Assembly: GCF_003334355.1 (NCBI RefSeq)
Contig: NZ_QOWP01000024.1
Strand: one strand, 5' to 3'
Length of the DNA stretch: 64,000 nt
From: Escherichia coli
GTDB lineage: Bacteria > Pseudomonadota > Gammaproteobacteria > Enterobacterales > Enterobacteriaceae
Position 1 is the first letter of the stretch. Every line of letters begins with the position of its first letter. Shown here one piece after another: positions 9,001 through 12,000 of this stretch. A program made the position numbers.

Positions 9001-12000
9001 CTGGCGTTTGTGGCGACAATTGTTGGTTATGGGATCTGGGGGACGTTACTGGGACGCTATGAAACCTGGCGGGTTGCACCGTTATCGTTACTGGTGCCCG
9101 TAGTCGGACTGGCAAGTGCGGCACTATTGTTGGATGAACGCTTAACGGGTCTGCAATTTTTAGGTGCGGTGCTCATTATGACCGGGCTGTATATCAATGT
9201 ATTTGGCTTGCGGTGGCGTAAAGCGGTAAAGGTTAGAGGCTAAACCATACGCACAGAATGTGATGTCAGCACTCTGTGCGTCTGCTTTTATCGCGGGAAA
9301 AAGTACTTTACCTGGAACTCGATAATATTGCTGTAAAGTAACGAATAATCCAGCGGAATAGAGTTACTGTCCACAGCCTGGGTCTGAATTTTAAGTATGG
9401 GATCCCGTGGGCTGATCCGTAAAATACTGGCGATTTCTGGGGTAGGAAAAGTAGGGGAGAAAGTTTCATAGGTGCCAATGATTTTGATCCCGCATTCGTT
9501 CTCAATATACGAAAATTTGGATTTTTGCATATGTGATACGGTTAAATCAGGAAAACGTGCCACTGACATCCACGTTTCTTCTAATTGTGCCGCATTATCC
9601 TCAATGAATCGCAGTCTCTTTATGTAATAAACCTGCTCACCGGGCACTAAATTCAGCTCAGTTGCAATAGTGGGTGAAGCATCCTGCACTTCAAATTTCA
9701 TAATCTGACTCCCTGCCTCTTTGCCGCTTTTATGCGCAATTTCACTGAAGCTGTTCATGTGATCAATGTGTGCAACAAAATTCTTTTTTTGAATGTATGT
9801 TCCTGAACCATGCTTTCTGTGAATAATTCCTTCGCCTTCCAGCAAGGATAATGCCTTACGCAGGGTATTACGCGAAACATTATAACGAACTGCGAGTTCA
9901 GCTTCTGACGGCAACAAATCACCAACGTGCCATGAATAGCCATTGATCTCAGATTTAAGTAAGCGGGCAATCTTTTGAAAAATCACTTTTGCACCTTTTA
10001 AGAGCCATTGAAAACAAGGAGTTGAGTCCTGATTGGTTTATCGTATGGCCGAGTCGTTTAATTATTACCCTGATGTTGAACAACTTTATTACTGTATTAC
10101 TGTGATCAATGTACCAGGATGTATAGCTACTGCGGGATATGATATTTACACAATGTAGTCTGTTATATACCAGTAAGGGAAAATATGAAAAAGATATTGT
10201 TAGTTTGCGCTGCGGGCATGTCAACCAGTATGCTGGTTAAACGTATGATTGATCATGCTAACGCTATTTCACTTGAAGTTAATATTTCCGCATTGGCGAT
10301 TGCAGAGGCTAAAGGAAAAATTAAAAATAACGAAGTTGACGTTGTTTTACTTGGCCCGCAAGTTCGCTTTCAGAAACCGGAGATTGAAGCCGTTGCACAG
10401 GGGAAAATGCCTGTAGCCGTTATCGAGATGAAAGACTACGGCACCATGAACGGACAGGCAGTTCTTGAATTTGCGATGAAACTACTGCAACAGTAAGAAT
10501 CTAATATTATTAAACTATTACCTGAACTAATTTTTCACACATCATAAAATGGATATGGCATACATGCTTTATTGGGATGTATAAATATCCAAAACAACAG
10601 GTATAAAAAAATGGGATTAATGGCCTCATTCGAACGTGGAATGGAACGTTTTCTTGTTCCAGTTGCTATCAAGTTAAACTCACAAAAACATGTTGCAGCG
10701 GTGAGAGATGGATTCGTTTTTACGTTTCCAATTATCATGGCAAGTTCATTAATTATATTAATTAACTTTGCCATATTATCGCCAGACGGTTTTATTGCCG
10801 GATTACTGCATCTGAATAGCATTTTCCCCAACCTTGAAAAAGCACAAGCTATTTTTACTCCGGTAATGAATGGTTCTGTAAATATCATGTCAATTATGAT
10901 TGCTTTCCTGGTCGCCAGGAATATGGCGATTAGCTATGAGCAAGATGATCTTTTATGCGGATTAACGGCAATAGGAGCATTTTTTATTGTTTATACGCCA
11001 TATCAGATGATAGATGGGCAAGCATTCCTGACGACCAAATATCTCGGCGCGCAGGGGTTGTTTGTTGCTGTTATCGTTGCATTGATCACCAGTGAAATAT
11101 TTTGTCGCTTAGCTCGAAACCCAAAAATCACCATAACGATGCCGGCAGCTGTACCGCCTGCGGTAGCGCGTTCATTTAAAGTTTTATTGCCAATATTTTT
11201 TGCCATGGTGTTCTTTTCCGCACTTAATTATTGCCTGACACTGATATCCCGGCAGGACTAAACGATCTTATTTACACATTAATCCAGACGCCGCTCAAAC
11301 ATATGGGAACGAATATCTTTGCGGTAATTATCCTGGGGGCTGTGGGTAATTTCCTGTGGGTGCTGGGGATCCACGGACCTAATACCACATCGGCAATTCG
11401 AGAAACCGTTTTTTCTGAGGCTAATCTGGAGAATCTCTCCTGGGCCGCTCAACATGGCACTACCTGGGGCGCGCCATATCCGATTACCTGGACTTCTATT
11501 AATGATGCATTCGCCAACTGCGGCGGTTCAGGTATGACGTTGGGGTTATTGTTGGCTATTTTTATCGCTTCTAAGCGTGCGGAATACCGTGATCTGGCAA
11601 AAATGTCATTTATCCCCGGTATTTTCAATATCAATGAACCGATAATGTTTGGCCTTCCTATTGTACTTAACCCCATCATGATGGTGCCGTTTATTATGGT
11701 TCCCATTGTTAACTGTGCCATTGGTTACTTCTTTGTTTCGATGGAAATTATTCCACCGGTTGCTTATGCCGTGCCCTGGACTACGCCCGGACCTTTAATT
11801 GCTTTCCTCGGAACCGGGGGGAACTGGCTGGCTTTACTGGTTGGTTTTTTATGTTTAGGTGTGGCGACAATGATCTATTTACCTTTTGTTATTGCCGCCA
11901 ACAAAGTCAATAACATGACAACTAACGGATAATTCCATTTACCCAGGAAGGAGATTGTGATGTTTGCAGATGAAGAACTTGTTATGGAGTTACTGGTCAA

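What the first reader, a model, noticed from the sequence alone, without database searches (positions are those of the whole stretch)
10081..10184. Candidate operator repeats in the regulator/PTS divergent promoter region
The regulator-EIIB intergenic region contains a tandem direct repeat ttactgta/ttactgtg (10089-10104), a TGATCA-centred imperfect palindrome, and two copies of caatgta (10107-10113, 10152-10158) each followed within 20 bp by accag. These are plausible binding sites for the adjacent HutC/GntR-type regulator, but no consensus is known to me for this particular regulator.
Basis: seen in the sequence. Interest (0 to 1): 0.25.

Follow-up and report, generated by a model that had tools for sequence, protein, structure and literature searches.

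The report
bgc operon promoter: CRP site, chance repeats
The repeats lie in the promoter of a known, often-decayed E. coli beta-glucoside (bgc) operon: the only flagged part conserved in other bacteria looks like a binding site for the global regulator CRP, not for the neighbouring GntR-type regulator, whose likelier site is a conserved palindrome just upstream.

Summary
The window is an E. coli chromosome. The finding lies in the 198-bp region between a divergent GntR/HutC regulator gene and a cellobiose-type PTS operon, inserted between eamA and marB. From memory this is the published bgcR/bgcEFIHA operon.

- The 8-bp tandem repeat exceeds chance (P about 5e-4). Its first unit is polymorphic within E. 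coli and absent outside Escherichia.
- The second unit and the TGATCA palindrome form a CRP-like site. TGTGA is invariant at this position in all 31 aligned orthologous regions that share BgcR's GTTC-N18-GAAC architecture, and a TAnnnT -10 hexamer lies at the spacing expected for a site centred at -41.5.
- The two CAATGTA copies and the ACCAG words are at chance level.

It is a GTTC-N18-GAAC palindrome at 10056-10081, placed 18-19 bp upstream of TGTGA in 31 loci. It also occurs in front of a separate kinase-bgcA operon in 12 genomes and beside 47%-identical paralogues.

No binding was tested here. This is an ordinary promoter of a known operon, with a modest new operator prediction.

The parts
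9288..9986 (-). Regulator gene (bgcR): GntR wHTH plus UTRA domain, HutC subfamily, GTG start.
   Evidence: ORF. Pfam PF00392 plus PF07702 on near-identical proteins. NCBIfam hits to HutC-type families. The start codon aligns with 15 orthologues.
9984..9997 (-). bgcR start codon and ribosome-binding block. It reads CACTTTTGCACCTT on the + strand, which is AAGGTGCAAAAGTG in the bgcR sense.
   Evidence: Near-invariant in 22 orthologous regions and in the bgcR-sense alignment.
10008..10024 (-). Inferred bgcR-direction core promoter. A -10-like hexamer CAACTC (10024 to 10019) is followed by the conserved TGTTTT(C/A)AA block.
   Evidence: A (T/C)AAC(C/T)N hexamer lies 30-31 nt from the palindrome in most first-copy regions and most second-copy regions. 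No transcription start site was mapped; this is inference.
10056..10081 (.). GTTT-N18-GAAC palindrome (consensus GTTCA-N16-TGAAC), the best candidate BgcR operator. The E. coli left half is degenerate.
   Evidence: It occupies the homologous position in 31 loci and recurs upstream of ROK kinase-bgcA in 12 loci. It is also found beside 47%-identical paralogues (L033, L036). Both halves are conserved between E. coli and E. albertii.
10088..10103 (+). The first unit lies in the 19-nt linker; the second unit is the flank and start of the CRP-like site.
   Evidence: P = 0.0004; first unit polymorphic within E. coli; first unit not conserved outside Escherichia.
10098..10119 (.). CRP-like site. The core TGTGATCAATGTACCA lies at 10101-10116 with its centre at 10108.5.
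   Evidence: It matches 8 of 10 core positions. TGTGA is invariant in all 22 EIIB-adjacent regions and in 29 of 31 aligned regions (the other two read AGTGA), and the TAAC and TC flanks are conserved.
10138..10143 (+). -10 hexamer TATGAT of the bgcE promoter. It places the CRP-like site at -41.5 if transcription starts near 10150.
   Evidence: A TAnnnT hexamer starts exactly 21 nt after the 16-mer in most orthologues. The block 10135-10148 is identical in E. albertii. The start site itself is inferred.
10151..10157 (+). Second CAATGTA, at about +2 to +8 of the inferred transcript.
   Evidence: It is a chance-level repeat. Only CAAT recurs, in the Kluyvera and Raoultella regions. Identity elsewhere is at background.
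10160..10173 (.). CTGTTATATACCAG, a 12/14 palindrome with a HutC-operator-like look. It includes the second ACCAG.
   Evidence: I3. It is invariant in 8 E. coli alleles and 13/14 in E. albertii. It is partly kept in Salmonella and Citrobacter and lost elsewhere. A palindrome of this quality is at chance level.
10175..10187 (+). Shine-Dalgarno sequence AAGGG and the ATG of the EIIB gene (bgcE, 10185-10496).
   Evidence: EIIB family hits.

Best explanation
**What the region is.** The 104-bp stretch is the core of the bgcE promoter of the known bgc beta-glucoside/cellobiose PTS operon.

**How it most likely works.**
- The TGATCA-centred palindrome, together with the second repeat unit, is a CRP-cAMP site (TGTGATCAATGTACCA).
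- That site is centred about 41.5 bp upstream of the inferred transcription start. A conserved -10 hexamer (TATGAT) follows and there is no -35 element. This is the layout of a class II CRP-dependent promoter.
- The same BgcR-plus-CRP module probably also serves the divergent bgcR promoter. For that promoter the palindrome would lie at about -44 to -69 and the CRP-like site at about -96.
- The first repeat unit, the second CAATGTA and the ACCAG words are lineage- or allele-specific sequence with no demonstrated role.

**Shown here.** Sequence, conservation and spacing.

**Inferred.** The transcription start sites, and which protein binds which element.
For: **Locus identity.**
- The gene order is a GntR/UTRA regulator divergent from EIIB, EIIC, EIIA, a porin and a 6-phospho-beta-glucosidase, between eamA and marB.
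- A citing paper states that BgcR is a positive regulator of the bgc operon (PMC3585215).
- CRP dependence comes from my memory of the abstract of Neelakanta et al. 2009.

**CRP-like site.**
- It matches 8 of 10 core positions.
- The left half and its flanks (TAACTGTGATC) match the CRP consensus AAATGTGATC.
- TGTGA is invariant in all 22 EIIB-adjacent regions and in 29 of the 31 aligned regions.
- A TAnnnT hexamer starts exactly 21 nt after the 16-mer in nearly all of them.

**Palindrome.**
- It lies at a fixed 18-19 nt from TGTGA in 31 loci, whichever gene follows: EIIB, EIIC, bgcA or another GH1 gene.
- A second copy sits in front of a ROK kinase-bgcA operon in 12 genomes.
- It is present next to 47%-identical paralogues that have a different PTS.
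- Both halves are among the six blocks conserved between E. coli and E. albertii in a region that is 74% identical overall.

They are at background identity outside Escherichia.
Against: - No binding, start-site or expression data were available here, and the primary paper could not be read.
- An 8/10 CRP core match occurs by chance about once per 2.3 kb.
- The right half of the CRP-like site is poor in Kluyvera and Raoultella (1-2 of 5) and in the second copies.
- Half-sites 22 bp apart are unusual for HutC regulators. Their known operators are compact GT-N4-6-AC palindromes (PMC3585215; bioRxiv 10.1101/2020.01.13.904318).
- The E. coli copy of the palindrome is degenerate (GTTT) and its linker is 19 nt rather than 18.
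- The block CTGTATTAC just upstream of TGTGA, and CTGTTATATACCA, are conserved within Escherichia, so lineage-specific sites cannot be excluded.
Confidence: 0.6

Rival explanations
1. One reading: the TGTA-containing direct repeats (TTACTGTA/TTACTGTG, CAATGTA x2) are the operator of the adjacent HutC/GntR regulator, bound as direct repeats.
For: - The tandem 8-mer exceeds chance (P = 0.0004).
- CTGTATTACTGTGATCAATGTACC is identical in E. albertii.
- From memory, the HutC-type FarR/MngR was reported to bind direct TGTATTA-like repeats.
Against: - The first unit varies among E. coli alleles.
- The first unit is at background identity in 29 non-Escherichia orthologues, although the recognition helix is nearly invariant.
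- The second CAATGTA is a chance-level repeat.
- The conserved part coincides with a CRP consensus half-site.
Confidence: 0.08
2. CTGTTATATACCAG (10160-10173), between the inferred start site and the ribosome-binding site, is a canonical HutC-type operator. It would act as a roadblock site for BgcR or another HutC regulator. This could hold in addition to the upstream palindrome.
For: - It is a 12/14 palindrome.
- By my own comparison it matches 11 of 14 positions of the DasR/NagR-type core CTGGTCTAGACCAG.
- It is invariant in 8 E. coli alleles and 13/14 in E. albertii.
- FrlR is a precedent for a HutC roadblock operator just downstream of a start site (bioRxiv 10.1101/2020.01.13.904318).
Against: - It is only partly kept in Salmonella and Citrobacter and absent in the other genera.
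- Palindromes of this quality are expected by chance (P = 0.28).
- BgcR is described as a positive regulator.
Confidence: 0.15
3. The invariant TAACTGTGATC block is not a CRP site. It would be a third recognition element of BgcR, spaced about 22 bp from the two palindrome halves, with CRP acting elsewhere or indirectly.
For: - The right half is poor in Kluyvera and Raoultella.
- In the 12 second copies TGTGA and the 18-nt spacing are kept although no -10 follows on that side.
- GTTC, GAAC and GTGA are evenly spaced.
Against: - The block matches the CRP consensus half including its flanks.
- The right half reaches 4 of 5 in Salmonella, Citrobacter, Erwinia, L004 and L030.
- The geometry is an exact -41.5 relative to the conserved -10.
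- CRP dependence is reported (from memory).
- The block has no sequence similarity to the GTTCA half-sites.
Confidence: 0.12

Closest known systems
bgc operon of E. coli (bgcR / bgcEFIHA; Neelakanta, Sankar & Schnetz 2009, Appl Environ Microbiol 75:2284)
   Same: - It has the same gene set and order: a divergent GntR-type regulator, then EIIB, EIIC, EIIA, a porin and a phospho-beta-glucosidase.
- BgcR is cited as a positive regulator.
- The islet is present in only part of the species, 2508 of 5426 complete genomes.
   Different: - The paper is not held, so its promoter map and the activating point mutation could not be compared.
- This window's copy is decayed: EIIC is frameshifted near 11248 and the porin is frameshifted.
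Class II CRP-dependent promoters and co-activated CRP promoters such as araBAD or melAB
   Same: - There is a TGTGA-N6-TCACA-like site centred 29.5 bp before a -10 hexamer, with no -35 element.
- A pathway-specific activator site lies at a fixed distance on the same face, 39-40 bp centre to centre.
- Read toward bgcR, the order is distal CRP (about -96) and proximal activator half-sites 21-22 bp apart. From memory, this recalls araBAD, where CRP is at -93.5 and AraC occupies I1-I2.
   Different: - The partner is a HutC-family protein, not an AraC-family protein.
- The half-sites are inverted, not direct.
- No start site or binding data exist here.
GntR/HutC operators (NagR/DasR dre, GmuR tAAATGTaTAGACAttTa, BguR AAAAATGTCTAGACAAATTT, FrlR GT-N6-AC)
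   Same: - BgcR has the same domain architecture, and BguR/GmuR are cited as relatives of BgcR.
- GTTC...GAAC formally fits the family scheme (N)yGT(N)xAC(N)y.
- CTGTTATATACCAG and, in this allele only, ATGTATAG resemble the compact type.
   Different: - The conserved candidate has x = 22 instead of 4-6.
- The compact look-alikes are allele- or genus-specific.
- BgcR activates, whereas the named relatives repress.
BusR (GntR family) bipartite operator
   Same: It is a precedent for a GntR-family wHTH protein reading two motifs separated by 22 bp (PMC8517857).
   Different: BusR uses a tetrameric coiled-coil ruler and an RCK_C domain, and it is not in the HutC subfamily. BgcR has a UTRA domain.

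Membership tests
CRP-cAMP binding site / class II CRP-dependent promoter | A two-fold symmetric core TGTGA-N6-TCACA within a 22-bp site. | tested here: met
   TGTGATCAATGTACCA matches 8 of 10 core positions: the left half 5/5 with consensus-like flanks, the right half 3/5. Matches of this quality occur by chance about once per 2.3 kb, so the sequence match alone is weak.
CRP-cAMP binding site / class II CRP-dependent promoter | Conservation of the site in orthologous promoters. | tested here: met
   TGTGA is invariant in all 22 EIIB-adjacent regions and in 29 of 31 aligned regions; the other two read AGTGA. The right half varies from 1/5 to 4/5.
CRP-cAMP binding site / class II CRP-dependent promoter | Site centred near -41.5 relative to the transcription start. 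| tested here: inconclusive
   A TAnnnT hexamer starts 21 nt after the 16-mer in most orthologues, which is the class II spacing. No start site was mapped.
CRP-cAMP binding site / class II CRP-dependent promoter | Expression depends on CRP-cAMP, and CRP binds the site. | not testable with these tools
   CRP dependence of bgc is recalled from the 2009 abstract only. The paper is not held.
GntR/HutC-family operator | An inverted repeat of the type (N)yGT(N)xAC(N)y, with x = 4-6 in characterised HutC members. | tested here: not met
GntR/HutC-family operator | The motif is conserved upstream of orthologous regulons when the recognition helix is conserved. | tested here: not met
   The helix SRNTLRKA is nearly invariant. 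The first repeat unit, the second CAATGTA, TGTATAGCTAC and CTGTTATATACCAG are all at background identity outside Escherichia, Salmonella and Citrobacter.
GntR/HutC-family operator | The same test applied to the GTTC-N18-GAAC palindrome: an inverted GT...AC repeat that tracks the regulator. | tested here: inconclusive
   It tracks the regulator in 31 loci, in 12 second copies and in paralogue loci. Its spacing (x = 22) is outside the known HutC range, and no binding was tested.
bgc operon regulatory region | A divergent GntR-type bgcR next to EIIB-EIIC-EIIA-porin-phospho-beta-glucosidase in E. coli. | tested here: met
   Identity to the published strain's sequence could not be checked.

The most novel reading that the evidence does not exclude
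BgcR-family HutC regulators are activators that read an unusually wide inverted repeat (GTTCA-N16-TGAAC, half-sites 22 bp apart). They would work with CRP bound to a strong half-site at a fixed 18-19 bp distance. Together the two would form a portable, bidirectional BgcR-CRP activation module. On one side the module would drive the PTS operon, with CRP proximal at -41.5. On the other side it would drive bgcR or a kinase-bgcA operon, with BgcR proximal at about -56 and CRP distal at about -96.
Probability: 0.4. Interest if true: 0.35.

Novelty: already known. Interest (0 to 1): 0.15.

Why it matters
The finding itself is routine. It is the promoter of a described, frequently pseudogenised accessory sugar operon, and the flagged repeats are mostly a CRP site plus chance or allele-specific words.

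The useful by-product is a testable operator prediction for BgcR and its relatives. If confirmed, it would give a HutC-family activator with two-turn half-site spacing and fixed phasing to CRP. It could also help explain why the E. coli copy is cryptic, since that copy has a degenerate left half-site, a 19-nt linker and a weak right half of the CRP site.

Tried and rejected
- **LexA box.** TACTGTAT is a good left half, but no ACAG follows 8 nt after either CTGT (read). Rejected.
- **IHF-like ATCAA-N4-TTR in TGATCAATGTACC.** The TTR part is missing. Rejected.
- **Sigma-70 consensus scan.** It found no + strand promoter and only two chance-level minus-strand hits. This is consistent with an activator-dependent promoter that lacks a -35 element.
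- **RNA explanations.** There were no Rfam hits at E <= 1 in 9800-10400. The inferred bgcE 5' UTR does not fold better than shuffles (z = -1.2). The apparently covarying arms around TGTTTTAAA upstream of bgcR gave no consensus structure (0 pairs).
- **Compact GmuR/BguR-type operator.** ATGTATAG at 10119-10126 matches the left half, but the T at 10120 is specific to this allele: seven other E. coli alleles and E. albertii have C.
- **Primary literature.** The primary bgc paper could not be obtained by PMC id or DOI. Further literature searches found no promoter map.
- **Other palindrome copies.** The one other exact GTTC-N18-GAAC in the window (45798-45823) equals the number expected by chance in 64 kb.

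Full report
**1. Where the finding sits**

The window is an E. coli chromosome. A 1.4-kb query around the finding matches complete E. coli genomes at up to 100% identity.

In an annotated genome, identical over the 1.4-kb query and differing at only 8 positions across about 8 kb of the islet, the islet lies between eamA and marB. It encodes a GntR-family regulator on one strand. On the other strand it encodes PTS EIIB, EIIC and EIIA, a carbohydrate porin annotated as frameshifted, and a 6-phospho-beta-glucosidase.

Window ORFs and NCBIfam hits agree with this annotation. Near-identical regulator proteins carry Pfam GntR (PF00392) and UTRA (PF07702) domains, which places the regulator in the HutC subfamily.

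From memory, this is the bgc operon (bgcR / bgcEFIHA) of Neelakanta, Sankar and Schnetz 2009. I recall it as CRP-dependent and positively controlled by BgcR. That paper is not held. A citing paper confirms that BgcR is a positive regulator and names GmuR, BguR and DasR as relatives.

The intergenic region is 9987-10184 (198 bp). It is present in 2508 of 5426 complete E. coli genomes.

**2. Checking the observation**

The exact tandem repeat is ATTACTGT x2 at 10088-10103.

I compared the counts with 5000 dinucleotide-preserving shuffles of the intergenic region.

| Feature | Observed | Shuffle mean | P |
|---|---|---|---|
| Tandem 8-mer, up to 1 mismatch (registers) | 7 | 0.12 | 0.0004 |
| Exact 7-mer repeats | 5 | 1.7 | 0.07 |
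| 14-nt palindrome, up to 1 mismatched pair | 1 | 0.33 | 0.28 |
| TGTA count | 4 | 2.1 | 0.13 |

Only the tandem repeat stands out. Most of the five exact 7-mer repeats are part of that tandem repeat, so the CAATGTA pair is unremarkable.

**3. Comparison with orthologous regions**

A profile of 16 BgcR orthologues retrieved 78 loci from one genome per species. Of these, 21 have the same divergent regulator/EIIB arrangement. They come from E. albertii, Salmonella diarizonae, Citrobacter, Kluyvera, Raoultella, Cedecea, Buttiauxella, Ewingella and Erwinia. Their intergenic regions are 186-200 bp long. Other loci place EIIC, bgcA or another GH1 gene first.

The alignment shows a few conserved blocks:
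- **bgcR start region.** The bgcR ribosome-binding site and start codon.
- **TGTTTTAAA block.** A TGTTTTAAA-like block upstream of bgcR.
- **Palindrome.** GTTC-N18-GAAC, at window 10056-10081, where E. coli reads GTTT...GAAC.
- **CRP-like block.** TAACTGTGATC, lying 18-19 nt after the palindrome. TGTGA is invariant in all 22 EIIB-adjacent regions and in 29 of 31 regions overall.
- **-10 hexamer.** A TAnnnT hexamer starting exactly 21 nt after the 16-mer that begins with TGTGA. E. coli has TATGAT at 10138-10143. Other loci have TAAAGT, TAAGTT, TAACAT, TAATAT, TACAGT or TAAGGT.
- **bgcE ribosome-binding site.**

I then measured identity of each E. coli word to the homologous position in other genera.

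| Element | E. albertii | Salmonella / Citrobacter | 27 other loci |
|---|---|---|---|
| TTACTGTA (first unit) | 0.88 | 0.12 | 0.23 |
| TTACTGTG (second unit) | 1.00 | 0.75 | 0.86 |
| TGATCA | 1.00 | 0.83 | 0.86 |
| CAATGTA, first copy | 1.00 | 1.00 | 0.44 |
| CAATGTA, second copy | 0.71 | 0.43 | 0.53 |
| CTGTTATATACCAG | 0.93 | 0.64 | 0.41 |

For the last two rows the best of five shifts was taken, which inflates background identity (my estimate: to roughly 0.4-0.45). Their values in the other genera are therefore at background.

**4. Variation within Escherichia**

Eight E. coli alleles and E. albertii were aligned.
- The first repeat unit is polymorphic: TTACTGTA, TCACTGTA, GTGCTGTA and TTGCTGTA. 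The exact tandem repeat is therefore a property of this allele.
- The T at 10120, which creates TGTATAG, is unique to this allele. All the others have C.
- E. coli and E. albertii are 74% identical over the region (147 of 198 positions).
- There are six identical runs of 9 nt or more between them: the bgcR ribosome-binding site, both palindrome halves, CTGTATTACTGTGATCAATGTACC, the -10 block, and CTGTTATATACCA.

**5. Interpretation**

The full core, TGTGATCAATGTACCA, matches 8 of 10 consensus positions. A match of that quality alone occurs about once per 2.3 kb, so most of the evidence comes from conservation and geometry.

The site's centre at 10108.5 lies 29.5 bp before the conserved -10 hexamer, and no -35 element is present. 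That is the layout of a class II CRP promoter, with the site at -41.5 if transcription starts near 10150. The start site is inferred.

The element that tracks the regulator is the palindrome.
- **Downstream gene.** It keeps its 18-19 nt distance to TGTGA whichever gene lies downstream.
- **Second copy.** In 12 genomes it recurs downstream of bgcR, in front of a ROK kinase-bgcA operon. A relic of the bgcR ribosome-binding site lies beside that second copy.
- **Paralogues.** It also stands next to 47%-identical paralogues that have a different PTS; in the two with exact palindromes (L033, L036) a CRP-like 16-mer follows at 18 nt.

I therefore take the palindrome as the most likely BgcR operator. 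Its centre at 10068.5 would be at about -81.5 for the bgcE promoter.

In most first and second copies a (T/C)AAC(C/T)N hexamer lies 30-31 nt beyond the palindrome on the bgcR side. This suggests a divergent promoter, with the palindrome at about -44 to -69 and the CRP-like site near -96.

**6. Caveats and rival readings**

- **Unusual spacing.** Characterised HutC operators are compact GT-N4-6-AC palindromes. A 22-bp half-site spacing would be unusual for this subfamily, although the GntR-family protein BusR reads motifs 22 bp apart.
- **Weak right half.** The right half of the CRP-like site is weak in Kluyvera and Raoultella and in the second copies. TGTGATC as a third BgcR element therefore remains possible, at about 0.12.
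- **Roadblock palindrome.** CTGTTATATACCAG at about +10 to +24 resembles a dre-type HutC operator and is conserved within Escherichia. It could be a lineage-specific roadblock site, at about 0.15.
The direct-repeat operator retains about 0.08.
- **RNA.** No RNA family or significant RNA fold explains the region.

**7. Verdict**

A modest new and testable prediction emerges: the BgcR operator and its fixed phasing with CRP.

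Noticed in passing
window 10572-11932 (about 11248) and 12327-14017: This strain's bgc operon is decayed. Compared with an intact RefSeq copy, the window lacks one C near 11248, which splits the EIIC gene into two ORFs. It also has an extra A at 10605, just before the EIIC start codon. The porin gene is frameshifted in the reference as well.
   Followed up: partly
L011, L014, L017, L028, L031 at about 4740-4900; L019, L021, L022, L024, L025, L026, L029 at about 4780-4950: Twelve genomes (Cedecea, Buttiauxella, Ewingella and others) carry a second copy of the TGTGA-N18-palindrome module. A relic of the bgcR ribosome-binding site and start (AGGTTCAAAAGT) lies beside it. The copy sits between the bgcR stop codon and a ROK kinase-bgcA operon, which looks like promoter duplication or capture.
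   Followed up: partly
window 10120: T in this allele versus C in seven other E. coli alleles and in E. albertii. The change creates ATGTATAG, an exact left half of the GmuR/BguR-type operator, at about -30 of the inferred bgcE promoter. Its functional effect is unknown.
   Followed up: no
window 9984-9997 and orthologous loci: The 14-nt block GAGGTTCAAAAGTG at the bgcR start is conserved more strictly than a ribosome-binding site would need. It contains the palindrome half-site word GGTTCA, and it is retained in the second copies where no ORF follows. It may be an autoregulatory or translational element.
   Followed up: no
L008 (Kluyvera cryocrescens) about 560-662: The orthologous control region is broken exactly between TAA and TGTGA. 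The palindrome is kept, but unrelated sequence replaces the CRP-like site and the PTS genes. This looks like a rearrangement or insertion breakpoint.
   Followed up: no
E. coli genomes H5-H10: In several E. coli genomes an IS1 element interrupts the regulator/EIIB region. This is another route of decay for the islet.
   Followed up: no
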